Shown here piece by piece: positions 16,041-62,581 of a stretch of 64,000 nt of DNA. The DNA comes from a virus (Duplodnaviria; Caudoviricetes). The stretch lies in IMG/VR virus record IMGVR_UViG_3300020037_003256, positions 155,271 through 219,270 of that record. One strand, 5' to 3'. The notes under the pieces are model-generated. The model was not told where the DNA came from and ran no database searches. It saw nothing but the letters and a program-made list of their open reading frames with translations. A program made the translations under genes and the position numbers. Every line of letters begins with the position of its first letter. The first letter of the stretch is position 1.

Positions 16041-16071
16041 ATTATTAGGACAAAATTTTTGTCCTAATAAT
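16041..16071. repeat. Perfect 15-bp inverted repeat in AT-rich intergenic region
   Basis: attattaggacaaaa-t-ttttgtcctaataat. Confidence 0.9.
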
Positions 16072-34820: not shown

Positions 34821-35303
34821 TTAACAAGTACAACGGAAATTAGGTCGTCGCGTTCGGTATACGCCTTGTGGTGCTTTATGCCCGGTTACAGTCTCAAAGT
34901 GCGCCCAAAGTTCTTCACTGTAATCCGAAAAACAAGGCGTATCAAGCGACAGGACGATCTCGCCCTCTCGTAGTACGTTTCCTTCTTCGTCTTCGTCGCC
35001 TACAGCCTCTTCGGTGTGCGCCTTCAAGAACGCTATTAACCGTCCAAGACCAACCTCGCTATCGTTTACCGGGTCCAAAGGCTCCTTTTGAAACAAATAC
35101 GTTTTGAAATCATCATGCTTATCCGCGAAATTTTTTAGCCAACGACACGCTGGTACGTATTTGCGTTGACGCTCTGCTTCTTCGTGCTCTCCATGTTCGT
35201 CTAACCAATCTGCGAAAACCAAACGTGCAGAGTCGTCGTACCACGGCAAGGCGGCGATGGCTCGGATAAACGTTAACCGTTCTTGCTTATACGCATCGCT
35301 CAT
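34821..35303 (-). CDS. TIGR02996 domain protein
   Basis: FIRAIAALPWYDDSARLVFADWLDEHGE. Confidence 0.85.
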   Translation of the reverse strand: MSDAYKQERLTFIRAIAALPWYDDSARLVFADWLDEHGEHEEAERQRKYVPACRWLKNFADKHDDFKTYLFQKEPLDPVNDSEVGLGRLIAFLKAHTEEAVGDEDEEGNVLREGEIVLSLDTPCFSDYSEELWAHFETVTGHKAPQGVYRTRRPNFRCTC

Positions 35304-35320
35304 GCCTAGTTCTCCTGATG

Positions 35321-35800
35321 TTAACAAGAACATCGCAAAGGCGGTGGTTCCTTACGCCAGTCGTTATTCGGTGCCTTCAGTCCTGTGACCACTTCGAAGT
35401 GCGTCCAAAGTTCGTCACTGTAGTCCAACGAGACATAAGGTGTGTCAAACGGCAGGTGTACTGATTTATCGTAATCGTATTTATCATCGTCGTCGTTTCC
35501 GTTTGCTGTACTTTTCGCGTGGGCTGCTAAGTAACACAGCAAACGGTCTATGCCGCTGTTCGGATACTGCAGATTGTGTACAGGTGGTCCTGTAAGTTGT
35601 TCAGAATCGTACCTGTCGTCGAAATCGTCGTATTTGTTTGCAACAGCGCGCAACCATTTCTCGGACGTAAGCCATCGCCGTTGCCGGTCGGCTTCGTCGT
35701 GCTCTCCGTGTTCGTCTAGCCAGTCTGCGAAGACTAACCTTGCGGAATCGTCGTCCCACGGCAGTTCATTGATTGCCCTGAGGAATGCTTCCCTCTCCAT
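35321..35800 (-). CDS. TIGR02996 domain protein (tandem paralogue)
   Basis: FLRAINELPWDDDSARLVFADWLDEHGE. Confidence 0.85.
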   Translation of the reverse strand: MEREAFLRAINELPWDDDSARLVFADWLDEHGEHDEADRQRRWLTSEKWLRAVANKYDDFDDRYDSEQLTGPPVHNLQYPNSGIDRLLCYLAAHAKSTANGNDDDDKYDYDKSVHLPFDTPYVSLDYSDELWTHFEVVTGLKAPNNDWRKEPPPLRCSC

Positions 35801-36143
35801 CTGTCGGTTTCTCCTTTTGGCCAAACCCTTCGGGGAAGGTCAGCTGGAAGCTTGGATGGCTCCAGACGTGGCGTAGGCTCGTAATCGTGTTAGGATATAC
35901 GAACAAAAACACGCGACTACCGCCCAACACAGGTTCTTTCAGAAATGGGTCTATAATACCAATACAGTCTGCCGGGTCCCTAGCCGCGACGATCTTTCTT
36001 TCGCCTTTAATCACGAATCCTACGTGCTGCCCGGGTTGCAGTGGTTCAGCTGCGATGACCGGAACGACTGGAATGTGGATCGCGTCTCGGCGATTTTCAT
36101 CTGCAGGTAGAGTCTTTCCAATTAGGCTAATAACGTCTTGCAT
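35766..36143 (-). CDS. Conserved phage hypothetical protein
   Basis: RDAIHIPV...GIIDPFL...PNTITSLRHVWSHP. Confidence 0.65.
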   Translation of the reverse strand: MQDVISLIGKTLPADENRRDAIHIPVVPVIAAEPLQPGQHVGFVIKGERKIVAARDPADCIGIIDPFLKEPVLGGSRVFLFVYPNTITSLRHVWSHPSFQLTFPEGFGQKEKPTDGEGSIPQGNQ

Positions 36144-36783: not shown

Positions 36784-37029
36784 TCACTTATCCGGTATAT
36801 CAAGCTTGTTTAAGACAGTGTCTTGTACACCAAGCTTGTCTGCAGTATCGGTCGCGGCGAGCAGTTCTGCGTCTTGCCTTTCTCTTTCACATGCGACGCA
36901 TTCTACATTGCTGCCTTTACGTGTCACATGATTGTGGTTCTCGCAGTACTGCGACTTACAGGTGAGGCACTGCCATAGCTTTCCACCGCAGGAGACCTCA
37001 CCGTAATAACAACGATTAGTCGTCCGCAT
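36784..37029 (-). CDS. Small Cys/His zinc-binding protein
   Basis: C..C..CLTC...C.NH.H...CVAC. Confidence 0.6.
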   Translation of the reverse strand: MRTTNRCYYGEVSCGGKLWQCLTCKSQYCENHNHVTRKGSNVECVACERERQDAELLAATDTADKLGVQDTVLNKLDIPDK

Positions 37030-37534
37030 CCTCGACTTCTCCTAACTCTTCGTCTTCGTCGTCCCAAGGTTCCCCAGCATAGTCGTCATCGTCGTCAGCT
37101 TCAAATTCTTCGTCGTCATCATCATCGTCATCGTCGTCTTCAAATTCATCGTCTTCGTCTTCGTCTTCAAATTCTTCATCGTCTTCATCTTCAAATTCTT
37201 CGTCTTCATCGTCAAATTCTGCGTCGTCATCGTCTTCCTCCTCTTCGCTATCGTCGGGAGTGAATTCGTCTTCTTCTCCTGCGTAAGCGGATAAAAACGC
37301 TTCAGCTGCAGCTGCAGCGCTACCATGGTAAGCTGGCCCTGGTAGGTTAAACTGACTGCCGTTAGCCGCTTCTTCGATGAAGAGACTAAACGCACTTAGG
37401 AGTTTTGGCGTGCTGTTATCGGCCAAGAACTGCAATAGCACAGCACACTTTGTATTTGCATCCCAGCCTAGCTTGTGGGATTTGTCTTGCAAGATAGTTG
37501 CAAAACTGATGGTACCGTCTTTGGCGTTTGGCAT
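37016..37534 (-). CDS. Protein with long poly-acidic C-terminal tail
   Basis: About 85 C-terminal residues mostly D/E, with repeated EEFE units. Confidence 0.7.
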   Translation of the reverse strand: MPNAKDGTISFATILQDKSHKLGWDANTKCAVLLQFLADNSTPKLLSAFSLFIEEAANGSQFNLPGPAYHGSAAAAAEAFLSAYAGEEDEFTPDDSEEEEDDDDAEFDDEDEEFEDEDDEEFEDEDEDDEFEDDDDDDDDDEEFEADDDDDYAGEPWDDEDEELGEVEDADD

Positions 37535-37547
37535 AGCTTGGCCTTCC

Positions 37548-38342
37548 TTATAATACGTGTTCTGGTCCAAATGATTCTTGTTTCTTTCTTTGTTGTAAGA
37601 TCTTATCGATCTGCTTCTCTATCTCCACCGTGCTTCCATGCTGCAGTGGTAAATCGCTAAGTTGCATACGCAGACTCGTAAGTGCGTCTAGCAGCGTATC
37701 TTCTACTTCAGCTGTCTTCGCTTGCTGCGTCTCGTATATCCCCTTAAACATCTCCGGGTCGTCTGCAAAATCATACCGTACTTTCGAGGACAGGTCTCCG
37801 CCTATGGCTATCCTAAGTACGTCAGGAGGTGTCACATAACCTTCGTCCGCTAGCACTGCGCTAATGTAGTGCCTAATCTCGTCCGAGAACGGTTCATCTT
37901 CATCCGGGGGAGACAGCAACAAGGCTTCAGTTATTGCCCACGCACATTCAACTGAATCAGCTTTATCCCACGTACCCGGGTCAAACTCATCGCCGGCTAA
38001 CACATTGGCCAAATGAATAAAGGCCGCAACGTCTTTATAGAAAACATCCGTCGTGAACACCATCACGGCGGCTAAGAGCTTGTCTAGGTTACACTGCGGC
38101 AAACTTACACCGAACTTCTGCCGAATCTCCTGACGAAAAGTACTAGGATGCCAAGCTCCACGCTCCGGCTCGTCAGCGTCGTGCAGGCATTCCATACCAA
38201 ACGTATCGAGAACAATAACCAGGAGCACCGTTCCAAAAGTATCTCGATCGGTGAGTAGTTCGCGTATGCGTTCTGCCGGATTAGGCTTAGCCGGTTTCGC
38301 AGCCGGTTTCGCGGACGGTGGCATGATATTGAGATCCGGCAT
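37548..38342 (-). CDS. Hypothetical phage protein
   Basis: 264-aa ORF. Confidence 0.7.
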   Translation of the reverse strand: MPDLNIMPPSAKPAAKPAKPNPAERIRELLTDRDTFGTVLLVIVLDTFGMECLHDADEPERGAWHPSTFRQEIRQKFGVSLPQCNLDKLLAAVMVFTTDVFYKDVAAFIHLANVLAGDEFDPGTWDKADSVECAWAITEALLLSPPDEDEPFSDEIRHYISAVLADEGYVTPPDVLRIAIGGDLSSKVRYDFADDPEMFKGIYETQQAKTAEVEDTLLDALTSLRMQLSDLPLQHGSTVEIEKQIDKILQQRKKQESFGPEHVL

Positions 38343-38346
38343 AGCT

Positions 38347-38799
38347 CTAATCCTTTTTCAGCTTACGCAACCATTTCCGCTGTCGCAGATGTAGCGAAGT
38401 CACGTCACAGGTTACCAGCAACACAGCAGGTTCTGGTAATTGTGCCACAGATTCGTCCAACAGCATATCGTACCAATCTGTTTGTGTAGACCACCCGACC
38501 CAACGTTGCTCAGCGAATGTTACGAGTAGAACTGGTAAACTTTCCGAAGTTGCGCTTGTAAGCTCTTCCGTGAACTTACGCAACGCCGGATCTAATCTGA
38601 CCAAAATGGACCTTGCCTGAGCATCTGTTACAAAACCCAAGGCTCGCATAAACTCCCAGAGACCAGCTTTCAATACGTTTATTAGACTTATGTTTACGAG
38701 GTGTTCCGGAGTGCGTAAGTCTAATACCGTATGCACCATGACACGAACGTCTTGGCGACTTAGCGTCGGCAAGAGCGTCGCTAGATCGTCAATGTTCAT
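38347..38799 (-). CDS. Hypothetical protein
   Basis: TAATG coupling. Confidence 0.65.
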   Translation of the reverse strand: MNIDDLATLLPTLSRQDVRVMVHTVLDLRTPEHLVNISLINVLKAGLWEFMRALGFVTDAQARSILVRLDPALRKFTEELTSATSESLPVLLVTFAEQRWVGWSTQTDWYDMLLDESVAQLPEPAVLLVTCDVTSLHLRQRKWLRKLKKD

Positions 38800-39137
38800 T
38801 ATCGGATGGGTCGGGTTACGGGGACACTTACGCGATAACGGGCTGGCTGCATAAGCGGGTGTTGCGGGGCCAGTGGTTCGTTATTAGCCCCGCGTACCAT
38901 GTCGATCGGTACGCCTGCACTGTTTACAGGATACGGGCCTACGCGATTACCGTTCAGCAGCGCCGGAGCACAGCCACGCGTAGCTGCATATTGTTGTGCA
39001 AGTTCAATCGTTTCCTTGCTTTCCAGCTCCGTGAAAGCGTCAAGGAATGGAGGGCCACCGCGATCCGATTCTACGATCACCATACCTTTGCCGCAATCCG
39101 AGGAAAAAACGCATTCGTTGTCCACGATTTTCAACAT
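38799..39137 (-). CDS. Hypothetical protein
   Basis: GGAG SD. Confidence 0.65.
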   Translation of the reverse strand: MLKIVDNECVFSSDCGKGMVIVESDRGGPPFLDAFTELESKETIELAQQYAATRGCAPALLNGNRVGPYPVNSAGVPIDMVRGANNEPLAPQHPLMQPARYRVSVPVTRPIR

Positions 39138-39154
39138 ACAATTTGCTCCAATTC

Positions 39155-39178
39155 GTAAAGAAAAACCACGCTATGGCT
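39155..39178 (-). terminator. Terminator-like hairpin ending RNA element A
   Basis: AGCCAU-AGC-GUGGUU followed by UUUCUUUAC. Confidence 0.55.
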
Positions 39179-39204
39179 GAGCTGCTAATCTAAAGAATAG
39201 CGGT

Positions 39205-39352
39205 GCCTTGTGCAATGCGGATTATCACTTGCTTGGTTTACAAGTGAACACCGCACCGCACAAGGCGATACGCAATTAAGGCCTGAGTCGTTTAAGTATG
39301 GCAGCCAACTGTACGGACGACACCACACCGGGTCGGTATACAATTAGCTGCC
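39205..39352 (-). ncRNA. Structured intergenic RNA (two long hairpins; element A)
   Basis: 15-bp stem 39300-39352 and 16+8-bp stem 39205-39266. All irregular pairs are G-U on the minus strand only. Confidence 0.65.
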
Positions 39353-39355
39353 TAA

Positions 39356-39760
39356 CTATTTTGGTTTTCGACTCTTTGACTGTTTGGGTACCTCAGAACG
39401 GTACGGAGCAAGGAACGTAGTTACGACGTCGGTAATAACAGTATCTGGAGATGCTGGGTTGAGCTGTTTGAACATACGTTTCAAATCAACCTCAAATCCG
39501 GCAATTAAGAGCGGCACTATACCCATTGCCGCGTCTTCTTCAGTAATCGAATCAAGTTGCAGCTTTGCTACCCGTATACCTCGGACAGCTGCAGCTACAG
39601 AACGCCGTTTCATGGCATACTGGATCTCGTCCTCGACGGTCCCTACGGCTGTAGCTATGAGTGCGTTTATCGCCGTATCTAGCCTATCACCGCAGTCTTC
39701 AAGCGTTAGCGGATTGACAAATCCGTTAACAACCGGTGCCTGTGTTTCTGCTACTTCCAT
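39356..39760 (-). CDS. Hypothetical protein
   Basis: GGAG SD. Confidence 0.65.
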   Translation of the reverse strand: MEVAETQAPVVNGFVNPLTLEDCGDRLDTAINALIATAVGTVEDEIQYAMKRRSVAAAVRGIRVAKLQLDSITEEDAAMGIVPLLIAGFEVDLKRMFKQLNPASPDTVITDVVTTFLAPYRSEVPKQSKSRKPK

Positions 39761-39769
39761 GGATACTCC

Positions 39770-39793
39770 ATTTTAAAAAACGTTTTTTAGACT
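39770..39793 (-). promoter_or_regulatory. Conserved 24-bp dyad motif, copy 4
   Basis: attttaaaaaacgttttttagact; overlaps the upstream stop. Confidence 0.75.
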
Positions 39794-40590
39794 TCGTCCG
39801 GCACACGCATGGCCCGGTCTATTTGTTGCTGTAGCGACTCTTCTAGCTGTGCCAGGCGATCTTGCGACTTGTCGTAGCTTCGTCGCGCGAGCTTCACAAG
39901 TTGTTTGGCGTCATATCGTAAACGTTTCACATGCAATAACTCTTTCATCAATACCGTTGCTTCGTCTTCGCGTCGTGGGTGATCCATAAGCAAACGATGC
40001 AGTACGTTAATCAGATGTTGCAAAGTTTCTTCTTGCTTGGCTGGATCGATCGGCACCTTGCGCGGTATTACGAAGGCGGCACGTAACATAGTTTGAAAAT
40101 TACCCAGCGCTTTCATAATATGTCGCGAAAAGAAACCTCGCTCTTCCGTGACGTTGAAACGGGGTAGGACCGTAGTAAACGGTCTTCCAACTACGTCGGA
40201 GTCGGGCTCTATGATACCGATTAACCGTATTACCCGAACGCGTACTGCGTCTTCATAAACACGGTAGACATCACTACACACGCACAACGTACTACCCTTC
40301 ATGAATACCCCCCAACCTGTACCGCACCCTGCCGTCAGGTGGTACAGGCCAGGACCATCGAACTGCGGGTCCGTACAGACCTCTGGTGCGGTAACGCCCC
40401 AGTCACGCGACCGAAGCCCGGACATCTGCGTAAGTGTGGCTACGTATACCTCTTTTGGCGAAATCGGATTTACGATTTTTGTGAGATCTATTTTTCCCCA
40501 AGTATGTCCGTATTTGCGGGCCATGGCCTGCGCAATTACGAATGCGGTATAGTTTACGGCGGGATCGAATAGGGTCGTAGTCGTTTGCAT
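39787..40590 (-). CDS. Hypothetical protein
   Basis: 267-aa ORF with GGAG SD. Confidence 0.65.
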   Translation of the reverse strand: MQTTTTLFDPAVNYTAFVIAQAMARKYGHTWGKIDLTKIVNPISPKEVYVATLTQMSGLRSRDWGVTAPEVCTDPQFDGPGLYHLTAGCGTGWGVFMKGSTLCVCSDVYRVYEDAVRVRVIRLIGIIEPDSDVVGRPFTTVLPRFNVTEERGFFSRHIMKALGNFQTMLRAAFVIPRKVPIDPAKQEETLQHLINVLHRLLMDHPRREDEATVLMKELLHVKRLRYDAKQLVKLARRSYDKSQDRLAQLEESLQQQIDRAMRVPDEV

Positions 40591-40619
40591 AGTGTACTCC
40601 AGTATTAGAGATTAACGTG

Positions 40620-42158
40620 TTAAGAGAAGAGATTGTTTACAACAGCGCTCCAGGCCCTTGGTCCTGAAGCGACCGGCATGGGTAACCATTGTGGATGCTT
40701 GAGACTGCTGTATAGACAAGCCGCGGCCAAAGATTTCAGCCAAGGCGTCGGTACCAAGTCGCTGACATTAACCATGTACGGAATGTCGTGTTTTTTCGGA
40801 CCGGTAGTGAAGTAGATGACATTGGAACCCAGCTCAACTTCGAACTGCCCAGAAAGATGCGAGCTTAGAAGCGATCGCATCTTTTCGATCTGCATTCTAA
40901 CAGCTGTGCCACAGAATGCAGGGAACACCGCCGAGACAGGATCTGGTCGTTCTGCGACGGTATCCCACGGACCAAGTAAATGTGCCCGAATAGCTACGTT
41001 AACGAGCAGATCGAGTTGGGCCTCGTTGAAACGCGATACTGGGGTATCGTCCGACAGGCGCTGCTGGTAAAAAGACCGCACGGCGTTTCGCAGTTTCGTT
41101 AAAGTATCGTCTTGTATTTGTACTGCGGCAGTTTTTATAAAGAGATCAAACGCCGCTCCAACTACGCCTTGTGCTTTGGTTTGCTTAGCAAAGTCGCTCT
41201 CTATCTCCTTGCTCGCTTTTTTGCGTGTTTCCCGCTCTGCAATATCTGTGAGTGTGGCCCGCTCATCCATACCGCGGTGAAACACCGGCATAGGTTTATC
41301 TGGTTCGCTTACGGCGTATATACGTCTCGCTGCTCCGAGTACACCGTAGATCTGACACAGTAACTTGCTTGCGTCACCCGCCAAGTGACAAGCAAGGCTA
41401 GCTCTATCGAAACAACCTTCCTGCATATCCATGGTGGAGTCTACGGCCAACATATGTTCCGTGTGGTATAGACGCAACCTAAAATTGTCGGGGTGGTTTC
41501 GCACAAACTCGGCTACTTTATTGTCTAGGTCTTGCACGACGTAATCAACTTCATCCGCGTTAATGTTATAGCGTTTACAGAAACTGCCACCGGTGCTACC
41601 CACGATAAGGTGCCGTAAAACTCTCGATGGCTCGGGGTGTTGTATTTCTCGCTTATCTCCTTGATCTATCATTGCCACGTTGCCTTTACGCATTTTCGCA
41701 GCGACTGCACTGCTCATGCGTATCATGGCGTGCCCTGCGGCAGACACACCACCCAGCTCCGCATTTACGTAACTGTTGTCGTAGGCTTCCACTAAATTAT
41801 CATCAACCATGTAGCACATTGCATCATGGTACAGTTCTGCTGTGGCCCCATGCCCTAACAGGTAAACACAGCTTTGCTGGAATGCGTAGATCGTACCTTT
41901 TCCGTACACAATAGCTCTTGCTCGATTCGCCAGACGTACTACCGCATTACCTTGCACGTACACGGTGCTAGTGCCCGTGGCAATTACGGTAACTCTACCA
42001 CTAGCTTCAACTACACCATTTCCACCTACGTGCACCGTTCCGCCCGTCGCATTGAATATATTGCCTTGCCCCAATACGACCTCTTCACCTGCGGCAATAG
42101 CCGCATCAAGTTCGGTCTGGGAGTACACTATTTTCAAGTCGTCTCGTACGTCATCCAT
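40620..42158 (-). CDS. Protein with N-terminal beta-helix-like repeats
   Basis: About 8-residue V.A.G.(S/A) periodicity over roughly the first 150 aa. Confidence 0.65.
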   Translation of the reverse strand: MDDVRDDLKIVYSQTELDAAIAAGEEVVLGQGNIFNATGGTVHVGGNGVVEASGRVTVIATGTSTVYVQGNAVVRLANRARAIVYGKGTIYAFQQSCVYLLGHGATAELYHDAMCYMVDDNLVEAYDNSYVNAELGGVSAAGHAMIRMSSAVAAKMRKGNVAMIDQGDKREIQHPEPSRVLRHLIVGSTGGSFCKRYNINADEVDYVVQDLDNKVAEFVRNHPDNFRLRLYHTEHMLAVDSTMDMQEGCFDRASLACHLAGDASKLLCQIYGVLGAARRIYAVSEPDKPMPVFHRGMDERATLTDIAERETRKKASKEIESDFAKQTKAQGVVGAAFDLFIKTAAVQIQDDTLTKLRNAVRSFYQQRLSDDTPVSRFNEAQLDLLVNVAIRAHLLGPWDTVAERPDPVSAVFPAFCGTAVRMQIEKMRSLLSSHLSGQFEVELGSNVIYFTTGPKKHDIPYMVNVSDLVPTPWLKSLAAACLYSSLKHPQWLPMPVASGPRAWSAVVNNLFS

Positions 42159-42513
42159 TTCTGTGCTCCTTGCTGATGTCGGATAAGAGGGCGGAAAATG
42201 CAGGATCTATACTTGTCTGCACTAGGACGTAATCGTCTAGGTACAGCTCTTTCGCTTCCGCGATCGCATTTCGCATTGCCTCATCACACTTCTTCACAAT
42301 GACATCAGGCTTATCCCGACGCACGAATGCGAGTAGAAATGTGTTGTGCGAACCAGGACGATCGAACTCAGCTACAGCGTATTCGCTTTTGTATTTTTTG
42401 GCTAAAGCGTTTACTGCTTTACAGTAGACTTCCCGATAACTATGAAGACCGGGAGGAATAGCTTCGCCGTCGCTAAATCCGTACTTGCTCCATAGCTCTG
42501 GCCAGAATTGCAT
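42151..42513 (-). CDS. Hypothetical protein
   Basis: Start reassigned to MQFWPELW (AAGGT SD), downstream of a terminator. Confidence 0.6.
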   Translation of the reverse strand: MQFWPELWSKYGFSDGEAIPPGLHSYREVYCKAVNALAKKYKSEYAVAEFDRPGSHNTFLLAFVRRDKPDVIVKKCDEAMRNAIAEAKELYLDDYVLVQTSIDPAFSALLSDISKEHRNG

Positions 42514-42538
42514 ATAGCACCTTTTAACGGGATAACAT

Positions 42539-42566
42539 GTAAAGAAAAGCACGGTATAACCGTGCT
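42539..42566 (-). terminator. Intrinsic terminator ending RNA element B
   Basis: AGCACGG-TTATA-CCGTGCT followed by TTTCTTTAC. Confidence 0.75.
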
Positions 42567-42586
42567 CAAAAGTTTTAAACACCAAA

Positions 42587-42654
42587 CGCTTTATGCGGTG
42601 CGGATAGTGCTTGGAAGACCCAAGACTACACCGCACCGCATAAAGCGATACGCA
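42587..42654 (-). ncRNA. Structured RNA element B, homologous to element A
   Basis: Perfect 17-bp stem cgctttatgcggtgcgg/ccgcaccgcataaagcg; shares TGCGTATCGC leader and core with 39205-39274. Confidence 0.65.
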
Positions 42655-42657
42655 TTA

Positions 42658-44431: not shown

Positions 44432-44502
44432 AGGAAACTCCAATAAGGCAATAGGCCTAGGACGTAGGGTAATAAAGACTAAAAGCTAGCCTTTAACTCA
44501 TG

Positions 44503-44540
44503 TATTATGACGCGTTTTAGGGGGTTATTTAGGCAAGAAA
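44503..44540 (-). promoter_or_regulatory. Candidate promoter for the small-gene block
   Basis: -10-like CATAAT (cgcgtCATAATac) in the intergenic gap ahead of the block; -35 spacing is non-canonical. Confidence 0.3.
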
Positions 44541-49288: not shown

Positions 49289-52021
49289 TTAATAATTAAA
49301 GTCCTGCTTACCTGCTTCCGTCGTTTCTAGCCAACTAAGCTCAGCGTCTGTCGGGTCACGGTAGCGTGCAGTTTTCCCTAACTCGATGCCGGACACGCGA
49401 ACCACAATCTTGTTGACCTCGTTTAAAGGCGATACCTCGATAACTACATCGCTACCGTCTACATAACCACCAGCAACGGCAGCCCGGTCACAAATGACGG
49501 ACACAACTTCAATAGAACCTGGTTGACACGCTGAGACATAAACACTGTCTAACGGTTTACGTAATTGCGTAACGGTCCCCTTAGCCACGCGATCCGTAAG
49601 CGTTAATTGGTCGTCAACGCGGGAATGCGGCATCGTGACGGGCGAGGCAAATTTATACTCAAACGTTCCTGGTTCCTCTGTGGGAAGTCGCATTACCGTA
49701 GCCACTGGAGCCATCATTAATGGTTGTCCGCCAGGACAGTTAATACAGTCTCCTTGTGGTCCTTGGTATCCCTGATACCCTTGGTACCCCTGATACCCTT
49801 GGTATCCCTGATACCCTTGGTATCCCTGGTATCCCTGATACCCTTGGTATCCCTGATACCCTTGGTATCCCTGATACCCTTGGTATCCCTGGTATCCCTG
49901 GTATCCCTGGTAGCCTTCTCCCTGATAGCCTTGATACCCCTGGTATCCTTGGTAGCCTTCTCCCTGATAGCCTTGATACCCCTGATACCCCTGATACCCC
50001 TGGTAACCACTACCAGAACCAGAACCAGGAGCACCCTGATACCCCTGATACCCCTGATACCCTTGACAACCCACAGGTATGCCGAAAGAAAAATCAAAAG
50101 TCCAGTGTAGACAATCTTCTATCGAAATTGTCACGTTGACGTACGGATCATAGTCGCACGGCAGCGCTTCGGCGTATACAAGTACGTCATCTATAATCGG
50201 AGACGGGCACGGGATAGAAGCAGTTAGCTTCAACTCGTAGTCGCAGTCTGTAAGACTTTTTTCGAAGTAGTATCGGATAAAGCCTTGAACACCGGTGCCC
50301 CAGTAGAAGTACGCGTAAGTCGGTATTTGCGGCACGATGTACGGACACGGAACTTCGGCAAGGATGCGTAATTCGTAATCACAATCCGTTTTAACGAAAT
50401 AGTATCGCAGGTAACCTTGAACACCATTGGCAGTGTAAAAGTAGACGTACGTGGCTACTTGCGGCGTAATGTGCGGACATTGTATATCTGCATCTATGGT
50501 TAATGTCCAAGTGCAGTCACTAGACAACGTGAAGTAGTAACTTAAGTATCCTTGTGTTCCGTTGGCCGTGTAGAAGTAAAGGTATGTGGCGGAAGAAGGC
50601 AACATGGTGGGGCACATTGCCGGAAAGTCCGCGTCGATCACTAACTCGTAATCACAACCAGTTTTTTCAAAGTACCACGAAATGTACGCCTGTCCGCCCG
50701 GCGCAGTATAGAAATATAAAAACTGCGCAACAACCGGCGTGAACGCAGGACAAGGTACATCAAGCGTAATGTCCAGGTCGTACTCACAGCCGCTACCTTT
50801 AACAAAGTAATAGGCTAACGTACCTTGCGTACCTGCGGCAAAACCGACATATACCGTTCTGGACGTGCTAGGCGTCAACGGCGGACACAGATACTCGAAA
50901 TCGATATCCAGGGTCCATTCGCACTCGGAAGCTTTGCTGAAATAAAACGTAAGCTTTGGCGATCCAGTCGTTATCTCTGTCCCTGTGATTACCGTTGACG
51001 AGTCTGGTTTCATGTCGGGACACGGAACCGTAAACTCAATATCCAGAGACAGGTCCCAAGAACAATCTGCACCAGCCGTGAACCCGTACACGACGGTCAA
51101 GTACGTACTTGTGAATGCCGTAGTGGGGTATAGCGGTGTCAGTTGCGGACACGGCGAGTCAAAATCTATATCAAGATCGAAATCGCAGCCTGTTTTCGTG
51201 AATCCAAAAGTCAGCGAACCCTGGCTGCCTGCTGCAAAATTTACGTACTTTGTGGTCGGCGAGATCGGCGTAATGACAGGACACGGTACATCAAGCGTGA
51301 TGTCTAGGGCGTAATCGCACTCAGCACTCTTCGTGAATCCAAAATGCAGCGTACCTGTGTTCGTGCCGCCGCCAGAAAACTCCACAGTGTAGGACGTAGG
51401 CGAGATCGGAGTAATGGTCGGACACGGAAGGTCCAAATCAAGATCGAAGTCCCAATCACAGTCGTTAAGCCGCGAGAATCCGAACGTAAGCGTACCGTCG
51501 CCATATGCAATTGTTTTAGTTGTAGACGACAAGCCAGCTGCCGTAAGCTGCGGGCAATGAAACTCTGCATCTAATGAAAACTCAAAGTCACAACTTCCGG
51601 CTGCGTCTTCTGGGGCCAACGGATCACAAGCGACAGGACTGAAACCATACGTAATCTTGCTAGGACCGCTTGTGAATGGGACATTGCCTTCCAGCGGGTA
51701 GACTGGTAAAGGCTTAGGGCATGGTATGTTAAGCTCCAAGGCCAAATCAAAGTCACAACACACGCCCTGCGTGATCGTGAACACCATGTTAGGTGGGTTA
51801 CACTCGGATGTTCCACCGTAGGTGAATTCACTAGTACCGACCGCTATCTGCGGGCACGGTGGTTCTAGTGGCATGGTTAGTGGTTCGTCTACGCAGTCAG
51901 CGATTTGGTCTGGCGGCTCGCTGATACGCGGATCTACCAGCATGTTTTCACATGGCGGGATCTTCGTCACACTAGCAACGGGACACTTTTCCGGATCAAA
52001 GGCCAAGTTGTCGTTGGACAT
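49289..52021 (-). CDS. Tail/capsid fibre protein with Cys-rich repeats and GYQ collagen-like domain
   Basis: 13 CP...C repeats of about 45 aa, FDFSFGIP.G junction, about 29 GYQ triplets. Confidence 0.75.
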   Translation of the reverse strand: MSNDNLAFDPEKCPVASVTKIPPCENMLVDPRISEPPDQIADCVDEPLTMPLEPPCPQIAVGTSEFTYGGTSECNPPNMVFTITQGVCCDFDLALELNIPCPKPLPVYPLEGNVPFTSGPSKITYGFSPVACDPLAPEDAAGSCDFEFSLDAEFHCPQLTAAGLSSTTKTIAYGDGTLTFGFSRLNDCDWDFDLDLDLPCPTITPISPTSYTVEFSGGGTNTGTLHFGFTKSAECDYALDITLDVPCPVITPISPTTKYVNFAAGSQGSLTFGFTKTGCDFDLDIDFDSPCPQLTPLYPTTAFTSTYLTVVYGFTAGADCSWDLSLDIEFTVPCPDMKPDSSTVITGTEITTGSPKLTFYFSKASECEWTLDIDFEYLCPPLTPSTSRTVYVGFAAGTQGTLAYYFVKGSGCEYDLDITLDVPCPAFTPVVAQFLYFYTAPGGQAYISWYFEKTGCDYELVIDADFPAMCPTMLPSSATYLYFYTANGTQGYLSYYFTLSSDCTWTLTIDADIQCPHITPQVATYVYFYTANGVQGYLRYYFVKTDCDYELRILAEVPCPYIVPQIPTYAYFYWGTGVQGFIRYYFEKSLTDCDYELKLTASIPCPSPIIDDVLVYAEALPCDYDPYVNVTISIEDCLHWTFDFSFGIPVGCQGYQGYQGYQGAPGSGSGSGYQGYQGYQGYQGYQGEGYQGYQGYQGYQGEGYQGYQGYQGYQGYQGYQGYQGYQGYQGYQGYQGYQGYQGYQGYQGYQGYQGPQGDCINCPGGQPLMMAPVATVMRLPTEEPGTFEYKFASPVTMPHSRVDDQLTLTDRVAKGTVTQLRKPLDSVYVSACQPGSIEVVSVICDRAAVAGGYVDGSDVVIEVSPLNEVNKIVVRVSGIELGKTARYRDPTDAELSWLETTEAGKQDFNY
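49752..50066 (-). repeat. 9-bp coding tandem repeat (Gly-Tyr-Gln)
   Basis: Units such as GGGTATCAG/GGATACCAA. Confidence 0.95.
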
Positions 52022-60437: not shown

Positions 60438-61046
60438 TCAGCCTAGGGTGATCCGCCATTCCAGTCCGATTTGAGACGTAGAGAGTTTTGGTTGTTGCGT
60501 TTCTGTCGGGAAGTAGAAGCGGCTCAGCACAATGTCTTGTGTGTGGTCCGTGTCGTCCACGAAAGCTACCAAAGCTCCGCCAATGACCACGGAGTTGTTT
60601 GCGTCAGAGAACGGCTTACCATGTACACCCACAACACCAGAAGTTTGTGCAAAGAACGAAGGCTGGTTCCCTTTTGGGAACTTGAGTGTGTCTGAGCTGT
60701 TCAACGTTGCAGACACAAGCGGTACGCGTAGGTAATCCGAATCCGCGGAGTGAACCAAGCCGCTGTAATAGTCTACGCCGTCGTCCGGGTCCCGCGTAAA
60801 CGTGGGTATATCTGCAGGGTCACCTGGTGATGCTACGTTTACATATTCGAGGTACATTCCGCCAATGCCGTAATTCGTCCCTTTCCGCAGTAACAAGTTC
60901 GCGAAAATGGCACCCCATTCATACAGGAATGCATTGCGTTTGAAATCCGTAGTCGCTGCCCAAACCGGGTCTTGCTTACCTTCAGCAACGCGGTATGCAC
61001 GTACGTGGCCGACTAAGTAGTTGCCTGGAATGATTACATCTCGCAT
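60438..61046 (-). CDS. Putative baseplate/tail-collar protein
   Basis: C-terminal LSRFYF...K.....IGLEWRITL, typical of baseplate/collar proteins; structural context. Confidence 0.5.
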   Translation of the reverse strand: MRDVIIPGNYLVGHVRAYRVAEGKQDPVWAATTDFKRNAFLYEWGAIFANLLLRKGTNYGIGGMYLEYVNVASPGDPADIPTFTRDPDDGVDYYSGLVHSADSDYLRVPLVSATLNSSDTLKFPKGNQPSFFAQTSGVVGVHGKPFSDANNSVVIGGALVAFVDDTDHTQDIVLSRFYFPTETQQPKLSTSQIGLEWRITLG

Positions 61047-61057
61047 TTAATACTACC

Positions 61058-62581
61058 TCACACGCAGTAACCGCCGATCTGAAAAACTCTTACTTCTTCA
61101 GCTACGTACGTCTCTGGAAGTAAGGTTTCCGTAAAAGTACTTCCAAGGAACGTAGCTATGTCTTCCGCATATCCAGCTGTTGTTTCTGTACCCGGACTCA
61201 CCATCGTAACTGATTCAGCGAAGTCTTGCGACACAAACAGCAAACAAAGTGTCTGCGGAGGTACAAGACGTCGCAAGTGTCTCGCTGCGTGCATACCAAT
61301 TGCATCAGGCCCAAACGCTTGTGGTCGTACAACGATAGCGAATGCATTTCCACGGTAGATGTTTTCAATTAAGAATTTGGCCGGATTGATCGTTGCAGGT
61401 AGGTTAACAGCAGTCGGTTGTGTTGCCCGGTTCTCTCGCGTATCTAGACGCATAGCTAGCGTATCGTTACTAGCTACGCCTTGCGTATGTACACTTTCCC
61501 AGAAAGCTTCAATATCTGTGGGCCAGCCACCCAAGGCGAAACTTACTTTAGTGAAGCCGTCAACATCCTCTTCAACCACCAACGGAACTTGCTTATTTTC
61601 GAACACCAGTTCATTTAAGAAGGCGGCAGACAATGTTCCGCCGCCGAGAGAGATCGCCTGGATACTGTCTGGAAGTTGTCCGCAGTTAAAATCGAAAAAG
61701 GTCAGAGCATCTGTCATTGCCTGCCCCGGTATTAACTGCGTCCCCGGCGTAACGGTCACATTCGCAGCACGAGAGAACGCGTAAGCGTTGCTATCGGTAA
61801 TCACCCAACGCCCATGTGCGTCCGAAAGAACGTGCTGTACAGTCTCGTGTGTGACGGCTAAGGGTACGTCGCACACTGCGGACATAAACTGGTCTAGGCA
61901 CTTAGCGGACGTACCGGTCACCAGTCCGTCGAAAACCGCATTAACTAGATCCTTGTACGTGCGACTGGATTTTAGCTTTAGGTCCAAGGCGTATCCGAAC
62001 TGACGATACACGGTGTCCCAATCGTACTCCCCGGCATACACCCACAGATACAATACGCGATCTGTGACTTGCCCAGCCACAAACACTTGGGATATGTGCG
62101 CGTTCGGTAACGTGAATGGGTTCACGCAAAACGCGACTACGCCGTCTTGCAGCGTAAAGTCCGTGCCTCGTGTGAGCGTGAAATCGGCTCGTGTAATTTG
62201 GTTGGATATTACATTCGCAGAGACTAAGCCTGGCGGGGCAGGCCATGCAAACGTTGCGGACGGTAACGGCGTATCAAACTTGAGCCCGTCCGTAAAAGTA
62301 TAGGCACCGTCGAATTTGGGAAGATTAGAGCTGTTCAGCTCTGATTCTTTAAGTGTTAAGAGTGACCAGTTTTCCTTGTGAAATACAGGCACCTTAAACC
62401 GACTGAAAGACGCCAACAGCTCGTAAAGGTCCAACTGTGCCTGAGCTTGTTGCTGAGCTTTAGCGTGTAGTACCGAGGCGACTAGATCCGATCCGGCGTA
62501 GGTCTCCGACCAGAAACTGCCCACAACGGCAAGTAACCGTCTGGCGTCGTCCAATTCCTGCGGCCAAACGAATTGTGCCAT
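61058..62581 (-). CDS. Putative baseplate wedge-like protein
   Basis: Start reassigned to MAQFVW; FGYALD...YKDLVNA and HLRRLVPPQT; structural context. Confidence 0.5.
   Translation of the reverse strand: MAQFVWPQELDDARRLLAVVGSFWSETYAGSDLVASVLHAKAQQQAQAQLDLYELLASFSRFKVPVFHKENWSLLTLKESELNSSNLPKFDGAYTFTDGLKFDTPLPSATFAWPAPPGLVSANVISNQITRADFTLTRGTDFTLQDGVVAFCVNPFTLPNAHISQVFVAGQVTDRVLYLWVYAGEYDWDTVYRQFGYALDLKLKSSRTYKDLVNAVFDGLVTGTSAKCLDQFMSAVCDVPLAVTHETVQHVLSDAHGRWVITDSNAYAFSRAANVTVTPGTQLIPGQAMTDALTFFDFNCGQLPDSIQAISLGGGTLSAAFLNELVFENKQVPLVVEEDVDGFTKVSFALGGWPTDIEAFWESVHTQGVASNDTLAMRLDTRENRATQPTAVNLPATINPAKFLIENIYRGNAFAIVVRPQAFGPDAIGMHAARHLRRLVPPQTLCLLFVSQDFAESVTMVSPGTETTAGYAEDIATFLGSTFTETLLPETYVAEEVRVFQIGGYCV

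What the first reader, a model, noticed from the sequence alone, without database searches (positions are those of the whole stretch)
39155..42654. Two dispersed copies of a covarying hairpin-plus-terminator RNA element
Seen in sequence (minus strand): A = TGCGTATCGCCTTGTGCGGTGCGGTGTTCACTTGTAAACCAAGCAAGTGATAATCCGCATTGCACAAGGC (39274-39205). B = TGCGTATCGCTTTATGCGGTGCGGTGTAGTCTTGGGTCTTCCAAGCACTATCCGCACCGCATAAAGCG (42654-42587). Both have the same leader and a 16-17 bp basal stem. Differences between them preserve pairing: C-G vs U-A, G-C vs A-U, and two G-U vs G-C. Both keep CTTG and CCAAGCA in a variable apical part, then a 20-26 nt linker and a terminator ending TTTTCTTTAC. Both are intergenic and precede a gene. 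This is selection on RNA structure, and I cannot match it to a family I know. Inference: either a new small-RNA family (fixed scaffold, variable apex) or a cis-acting attenuation/antitermination element, analogous to put/nut sites, controlling read-through into early genes.
Basis: partly seen in the sequence, partly recalled or inferred. Interest (0 to 1): 0.85.

Follow-up and report, generated by a model that had tools for sequence, protein, structure and literature searches.

The report
Phage long hairpin before signature terminator
A family of uncultured giant phages that carry their own RNA polymerase ends many transcripts with a shared stop-signal sequence, and at one fixed gene junction always places a long double-stranded RNA hairpin in front of it; this genome has that junction twice, and the hairpin is probably a processing or protecting structure, possibly a small RNA in its own right.

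Summary
A and B are real, have no Rfam match and are the only two copies in this 219-kb phage, which encodes its own RNA polymerase and a sigma-like protein. B is a recent duplicate of A. A is the ancestral element: 18 related phages have a long, mostly bulged hairpin at the same junction, 17 directly before the same 112-aa gene. In the closest clade 9 of 14 pairs change on both sides; G-U outnumbers A-C 25:11. The U-rich tail is a separate family-wide signal: 25 coding-strand hits in six genomes, 22 intergenic, and all 14 copies of a conserved phage promoter are followed by one within 5.4 kb. Best reading: a sequence-marked terminator of the phage's transcription units, preceded here by an RNase III-type processing or 3'-protecting stem. 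A put/nut-like switch is not supported. A trans-acting RNA stays open, because in at least one relative promoter, hairpin and tail enclose about 200 nt without an ORF. Nothing was tested on RNA. The scan had not noted this element on other DNA, only analogous unrelated families.

The parts
39205..39266 (-). Copy A long hairpin: 16-bp basal stem, asymmetric internal loop, apical stem-loop; the orthologous, ancestral copy
   Evidence: orthologues
39267..39275 (-). Short conserved spacer ('leader') between the upstream stop codon and stem A
   Evidence: stem starts 6-14 nt after a stop codon
39187..39215 (-). Candidate sigma70-type promoter for the 112-aa gene: -35-like hexamer in the 3' arm (39215-39210), 17 nt, TAnnnT at 39192-39187 (inferred)
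   Evidence: TAnnnT at this place in A and 9 relatives, not in B
39166..39204 (-). Linker of conserved length (38-42 nt to the U-tract) with only a weak hairpin in A
39149..39165 (-). Family-wide terminator tail of A (U-tract, then UUA, S, and a CYAUC-like end)
42587..42647 (-). Copy B long hairpin, 17-bp basal stem; recent duplicate of A
42648..42657 (-). Second stop codon and spacer between the 278-aa gene and stem B
42547..42567 (-). Canonical intrinsic-terminator hairpin of B (9 pairs)
42539..42548 (-). Tail of B, only the 5' part of the family motif (PWM 12.4 versus 23.0 for A)
44502..44532 (-). Conserved phage promoter-like motif (CTAAAT, 17 nt, CATAAT) heading the unit; 4 copies in the genome
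42658..43494 (-). 278-aa gene with hydrophobic stretches, upstream of B; no family match
39787..42513 (-). Lineage-specific block of three genes (120, 512, 267 aa) between B and the 134-aa gene; no homologue in the related loci
39356..39760 (-). 134-aa gene upstream of A, with a conserved -1 frame extension that ends at 39276
39300..39352 (-). Third hairpin, 4 nt after the 0-frame stop of the 134-aa gene; likely frameshift stimulator, inside the -1 frame
38799..39137 (-). Conserved 112-aa gene of unknown function downstream of A (131 relatives)

Best explanation
The element has two layers. (1) The U-rich tail is a sequence-marked terminator that ends the units started at the phage's own promoter class, probably read by the phage-encoded RNA polymerase. 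Its distribution is shown; termination and the polymerase are inferred. (2) At one junction, ahead of the operon that starts with the 112-aa gene, a long bulged double-stranded stem sits about 40 nt before the tail. It acts on the RNA, most likely as a host RNase III-type processing site or as a 3'-protecting stem, so that the upstream message is cut or stabilised and uncoupled from the downstream operon. The stem and its strand preference are shown; the nuclease role is inferred. The downstream operon probably has its own sigma70-type promoter overlapping the junction (inferred). Copy B is a recent duplicate of A that closes the 278-aa gene ahead of an acquired three-gene block; it has a strong terminator hairpin and has lost the -10-like box.
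For: Tail: 25 coding-strand versus 7 opposite-strand hits in six genomes, 22 of 25 outside ORFs where about 11% is expected, reversed-pattern control 2 hits. Most lie 55-110 nt after a stop codon; median hairpin directly before them -16.7 kcal/mol, 14 of 25 at -16.7 or stronger. All 14 promoter-motif sites in four genomes have a tail within 0.2-5.4 kb (about 1e-9 for the 9 sites not used to find the loci, ignoring shared ancestry). RNA polymerase subunits in G000 and 4 of 5 relatives, weak sigma matches in G000. Stem: 14 of 20 junction regions reach a helix score found in 1.25% of random windows; G-U 25 versus A-C 11, p=0.014; 9 of 14 pairs double-sided, 0/500 shuffles. Size and shape resemble T7 R1.1, 60 nt with an asymmetric internal loop between early genes (PMC6121014). 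No phage RNase III. A tail-bearing cassette is repeated four times in G002 and twice in L010.
Against: No RNA end has been mapped. The hairpin next to the U-tract is weak in A and several orthologues and missing in G005. One good tail in G000 lies inside a 385-aa ORF. The most conserved pairs beside the internal loop are G-C/C-G, which can block E. coli RNase III at some positions (PMC1540722). ORF-less promoter-hairpin-tail units are not needed by an mRNA-protection model. Motif and promoter models were partly trained on these same genomes, and the phages are related, so the p-values overstate independence.
Confidence: 0.5

Rival explanations
1. The long hairpin is the product: a small double-stranded RNA made from the phage promoter, directly or released from a 3' UTR, that works in trans, for example as a decoy for a host dsRNA-binding nuclease or defence sensor.
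For: In L022 (G004) a full promoter match, hairpins and tail enclose 207 nt with no ORF of 20 codons; L019 (170 nt) and L015 (191 nt) look alike, with imperfect promoter matches and only short ORFs lacking an SD. The stem persists while the upstream genes are replaced, and its sequence is free across the family.
Against: No dedicated promoter directly before A or B; both start 6-14 nt after a stop codon. ORF-less leaders with RNase III sites are also known (T7 R0.3, lambda N leader; own knowledge). The fixed 38-42 nt distance to the tail fits a cis role.
Confidence: 0.22
2. A put/nut-like antiterminator or attenuator: the stem modifies the polymerase, or switches pairing, to control read-through into the 112-aa operon; the tail could be a boxA-like site.
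For: The stem precedes a weak terminator at fixed distance and starts within ribosome reach of a stop codon. The tail resembles boxA in being pyrimidine-rich and ending in UUA.
Against: Alternative pairing of the 3' arm with the pre-U-tract segment is no better than shuffles (permutation p=0.06; each sequence p at least 0.1). Loops are not conserved. The tail follows ordinary terminator hairpins at gene ends genome-wide and lacks the G-C at boxA positions 2-3 (boxA 12-mer in PMC3177189).
Confidence: 0.12
3. The tail is a DNA promoter element or activator box (like a -35 or the T4 MotA box), and the hairpins before it are ordinary terminators.
For: In six sites (L004, L012, L013, L021, L023, L031) a TAnnnT lies exactly 17 nt after the hexamer in the tail (read).
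Against: Over 25 genomic sites the TAnnnT spacing is scattered, at most 4 at one distance. In A's clade the start codon follows within 20-28 nt, leaving no room. The tail abuts hairpins exactly where a U-tract belongs.
Confidence: 0.1
4. A DNA-level palindrome (cruciform, origin or recombination site) whose arms are homogenised by template switching, which mimics covariation.
For: The opposite strand also folds well (z -4 to -12); 11 A-C mismatches are tolerated; B is a duplicate near an inserted block.
Against: G-U excess on the coding strand; the covariance model scores every homologue far higher on the coding strand; B and A do not flank the insert, as the 134-aa gene lies between and is ancestral; no joint skipping from B to A in four runs (contigs only).
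Confidence: 0.06

Closest known systems
Conserved 26-nt termination motif of Thermus phage P23-45 pre-early region (PMC10770324)
   Same: A phage with its own multisubunit-type polymerase has a conserved sequence motif at transcript ends, paired with its own promoter class.
   Different: There the ends were mapped by ONT-cappable-seq and cluster at one genome end; here the sites are predicted, dispersed, combine a free hairpin with a fixed tail, and no sequence likeness was tested.
T7 early-region RNase III sites, e.g. R1.1 (PMC6121014, PMC3643576, PMC1540722)
   Same: About 60 nt, long stem with an asymmetric internal loop, intergenic, in a phage without its own RNase III.
   Different: Here the stem sits about 40 nt before a terminator tail, occurs at one junction, is G-C rich beside the loop, and cleavage is untested.
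Intrinsic (class I) terminators and T7 class II sequence-dependent terminators (PMC9157156)
   Same: Hairpin plus U-tract at gene ends; a sequence word that may add pausing.
   Different: The fixed word follows the U-tract and is unrelated to the class II word; natural hairpin-plus-word hybrids are family-wide here.
HK022 put and lambda nut / rrn boxA (PMC3177189; put from own knowledge)
   Same: Stem-loop upstream of a terminator; pyrimidine-rich word.
   Different: No conserved loop or two-hairpin put fold, position at the end of the unit, tail lacks boxA's conserved G-C.

Membership tests
Any Rfam 15 family | Score at or above gathering threshold | tested here: not met
   0 hits in window and 11 homologous loci; only sub-threshold miRNA-like hairpin matches, E 0.2 or worse
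Intrinsic terminator | G-C rich hairpin directly before a U-tract | tested here: inconclusive
   Met for B and for most genome-wide tails; weak for A and its clade
Intrinsic terminator | Located after stop codons on the coding strand | tested here: met
   22 of 25 coding-strand tails intergenic
Intrinsic terminator | RNA 3' ends map in the U-tract | not testable with these tools
   No RNA holder listed; contigs cannot show ends
Phage-polymerase terminator (P23-45 type) | Phage encodes its own RNA polymerase | tested here: met
   Rpb1/Rpb2 domains in G000 and in 4 of 5 relatives
Phage-polymerase terminator (P23-45 type) | Motif co-distributed with a phage promoter class | tested here: met
   14 of 14 promoter-motif sites followed by a tail within 5.4 kb; the promoter itself is predicted
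Phage-polymerase terminator (P23-45 type) | Termination by the phage enzyme depends on the motif | not testable with these tools
   Needs in vitro transcription
RNase III processing site (T7 R1.1 type) | Intergenic stem of more than one helical turn with tolerated bulges or an internal loop | tested here: met
   16-17 bp basal stem plus apical stem in A and B; long stems in relatives
RNase III processing site (T7 R1.1 type) | Permissive proximal and distal box pairs | tested here: inconclusive
   Cut site unknown; conserved G-C/C-G pairs beside the loop could be antideterminants by E. coli rules
RNase III processing site (T7 R1.1 type) | Cleavage by RNase III | not testable with these tools
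   Needs enzyme assay or 5'-end mapping
put/nut antiterminator or attenuator | Conserved loop or bulge sequence for protein or polymerase contact | tested here: not met
   Apical and loop sequences differ among orthologues
put/nut antiterminator or attenuator | Conserved mutually exclusive pairing with the terminator | tested here: not met
put/nut antiterminator or attenuator | Placed shortly behind the promoter | tested here: not met
   B 2.0 kb and A 5.4 kb from the promoter motif; close only in L015, L019, L022
Trans-acting small RNA gene | Own promoter and terminator without an ORF between | tested here: inconclusive
   Not met for A and B; met for L022, roughly for L019 and L015

The most novel reading that the evidence does not exclude
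These phages make a dedicated long double-stranded RNA of free sequence from their own promoter-terminator pair, as a stand-alone 170-210 nt transcript in some members and as a processed 3' UTR in others, and use it in trans as a decoy for a host dsRNA nuclease or sensor, as adenovirus uses VA RNA.
Probability: 0.2. Interest if true: 0.85.

Novelty: new variant of a known kind. Interest (0 to 1): 0.5.

Why it matters
It gives a matched promoter and terminator signature for an unstudied family of 200-235 kb phages with their own polymerase, probably of Planctomycetes, and so a first map of their transcription units and ready templates for asking how a stripped-down multisubunit polymerase terminates. 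A natural terminator with a fixed word after the U-tract has few precedents. The long stem kept in 19 lineages with free sequence points to a structure-only function worth one simple RNase III assay.

Tried and rejected
Rfam at gathering and E-value thresholds: nothing. Exact DNA pattern in IMG/VR: 0. Single-protein locus searches failed until alignments were used. No cultured phage relative by tblastn. Pfam, PHROGs, NCBIfam and ESM Atlas gave no function for the flanking genes. Further copies in the own genome: none by BLAST or covariance model; the model does not reach distant relatives. No RNA holder listed, and the RNA-labelled runs were contigs, one flagged as probably DNA, so expression was not tested. 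Switch pairing rejected. Amber read-through by the phage's CUA tRNA rejected: B has a double stop and A follows TAA. CsrB-like sponge rejected: no GGA loops in the folds. Cassette travelling with the 120-aa gene rejected: its one relative overlaps the preceding gene. Paper searches found no description of this phage family or element.
Full report
Observation. Copies A (39274-39205) and B (42654-42587) are present on the minus strand as described. A has a 16-bp basal stem with two G-U pairs and B a perfect 17-bp stem; both fold far better than shuffles (z -10.0 and -12.1). Rfam has no match. BLAST, motif scans and a covariance model built from orthologues find only these two copies in the genome. 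B has a canonical terminator hairpin; A does not pass the scan.

Setting. The window is the last 64 kb of a 219,270-nt virus record with about 94% of called genes on one strand. It encodes beta and beta-prime-like polymerase subunits and a protein with weak sigma-70 matches. Two TIGR02996 proteins lie downstream of A; this domain is typical of Planctomycetes (own knowledge), so the host is inferred, not shown. No RNase III domain was found in this or four related genomes.

Orthologues. The 112-aa gene after A has 131 relatives. I obtained the upstream DNA of 18 distinct related phages. Each has one or more long hairpins followed by a pyrimidine tract ending in UUA; in the most distant one (G005) this lies one gene further upstream. 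With a strand-symmetric helix finder, 14 of 20 regions (including A and B) score 12 or more, against 1.25% of random windows; the rest are bulged stems scoring 9-11.5. Mismatches inside the helices are 25 G-U, 11 A-C and 11 other (p=0.014 for G-U over A-C), which favours a structure on the coding strand. In the closest clade the element is alignable: 90.6% of cells pair, 9 of 14 pairs change on both sides, and neither shuffles nor slid registers come close (relatedness inflates such counts). The apex is not conserved. The stem starts 6-14 nt after a stop codon and ends 38-42 nt before the U-tract.

Origin of B. Close relatives have the order 278-aa-like gene, 134-aa gene, element, 112-aa gene. 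Here three genes without homologues in those loci are inserted, and B sits in front of them. B's 5' arm matches A at 14 of 16 positions and orthologues at 8-11, so B is a recent duplicate in this lineage. L001 and L027 have an unrelated hairpin plus pyrimidine tract at B's position. Duplication of tail-bearing cassettes also occurred in L010 and four times in G002.

The tail is a separate, genome-wide signal. A weight matrix from the orthologous tails ranks A first in G000 and picks further minus-strand sites at 127944, 72911 and 23827, each intergenic and preceded by two hairpins, and one inside an ORF at 60841. In six genomes a pattern with one mismatch gives 25 coding-strand hits, 22 outside ORFs where about 11% is expected, 7 on the other strand, and 2 for the reversed pattern. 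Most lie 55-110 nt after a stop codon directly behind a G-C rich hairpin. A conserved promoter-like motif, two hexamers 17 nt apart, occurs four times in G000 and upstream of this junction in most relatives. All 14 sites found in four genomes are on the coding strand and have a tail 0.2-5.4 kb downstream, although tails number only 2-6 per genome. For the nine sites not used to find the loci the chance is about 1e-9 if they were independent, which they are not fully. The simplest reading is one promoter class and one terminator class of the phage's own polymerase. P23-45 is a precedent: seven mapped termination sites share a 26-nt motif attributed to its virion polymerase (PMC10770324).

Embedded promoter. 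In A and nine relatives a TAnnnT hexamer lies in the linker at a nearly fixed place, with positions 1, 2 and 6 invariant and 3-5 free, as in a sigma70 -10 box; in A a good -35-like hexamer lies 17 nt upstream in the 3' arm. B lacks it. In several distant relatives a TAnnnT lies instead 17 nt after the tail. I infer that the 112-aa operon has its own promoter overlapping the junction; a transcript starting there would lack the 5' side of the weak hairpin and pass the U-tract. This is unproven.

What the long stem does. Shown: it is conserved as structure, prefers the coding strand and keeps its distance to the tail. Not shown: its partner. Its size, its asymmetric internal loop and its place between genes match T7 R1.1 (PMC6121014), so host RNase III processing, or protection of the upstream message's 3' end, is my first choice; E. 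coli box rules give no clear verdict (PMC1540722). A switch is unlikely, since the 3' arm pairs with the pre-U-tract segment no better than shuffles do. A trans-acting RNA cannot be excluded: in G004 promoter, hairpins and tail enclose 207 nt without an ORF, and L019 and L015 look similar with weaker promoter matches. No RNA data could be brought to bear.

A by-product explains the third hairpin. The 134-aa gene and six homologues all have an open, conserved -1 frame of about 25 residues at their end; six have a canonical slippery heptamer in the right frame, three of them the lambda G/GT heptamer (PMC3296357). In this genome the site is non-canonical, and the 39352-39300 hairpin begins 4 nt after the 0-frame stop. 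The -1 frame ends at the stop just before A.

Verdict. A real, undescribed, structure-conserved element of a whole phage family, best read as a new variant of known parts: a sequence-marked terminator plus an RNase III-type stem. Interest 0.5; 0.85 if the hairpin proves to be a trans-acting RNA (probability about 0.2).

Noticed in passing
window 39370-39276 (-); L001, L014, L017, L024, L025, L027: Conserved probable -1 programmed frameshift at the end of the 134-aa gene, adding about 25 conserved residues; canonical slippery heptamers in six homologues, stimulator-like hairpin at 39352-39300 here.
   Followed up: partly
window 44532-44502 (-); G000 129604, 73195, 24584 (-): Four near-identical copies of a promoter-like motif (two hexamers 17 nt apart), conserved in relatives; candidate target of the phage sigma factor.
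   Followed up: partly
window 9127, 16550, 29967, 39774, 52980, 58565; about 21 sites genome-wide: A/T-tract palindrome of about 16 bp dispersed every 4-22 kb, often between a stop and a start codon; one copy directly precedes the 134-aa gene. Similar palindromes seen in L021 and L029.
   Followed up: no
window 16041-16071; G000 61095-61125 and 141524-141554: Three copies of an AT-rich repeat of more than 60 nt containing a perfect 14-bp inverted repeat, each upstream of a gene; origin- or promoter-like.
   Followed up: no
G000 89121-89193 (-): Single tRNA with CUA anticodon; TAG is still used as a stop in 46 of 183 long ORFs, so no genome-wide recoding.
   Followed up: partly
G000 60841 (-), L093: A strong tail motif with an upstream hairpin lies about 220 nt inside a 385-aa ORF that follows the AT-rich repeat; possible premature terminator.
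   Followed up: no
G002 (oriented) 72825, 74102, 74980, 75779: Four repeats of one hairpin-plus-tail cassette at successive gene junctions, suggesting cassette-like gene shuffling.
   Followed up: no
L013 and L021, junction before the 112-aa gene: The tail is predicted to be paired inside a hairpin in these two relatives, unlike elsewhere.
   Followed up: no
window 34821-35824 (-): Two adjacent paralogous TIGR02996-domain genes, pointing to a Planctomycete host.
   Followed up: partly
window 37016-37570 (-) and 49730-50075: A protein with a long acidic Asp/Glu tract, and a 9-nt tandem repeat array inside the 910-aa ORF.
   Followed up: no
G000 73205-74011 (-): Caspase-domain (Peptidase_C14) gene just upstream of one promoter motif.
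   Followed up: no
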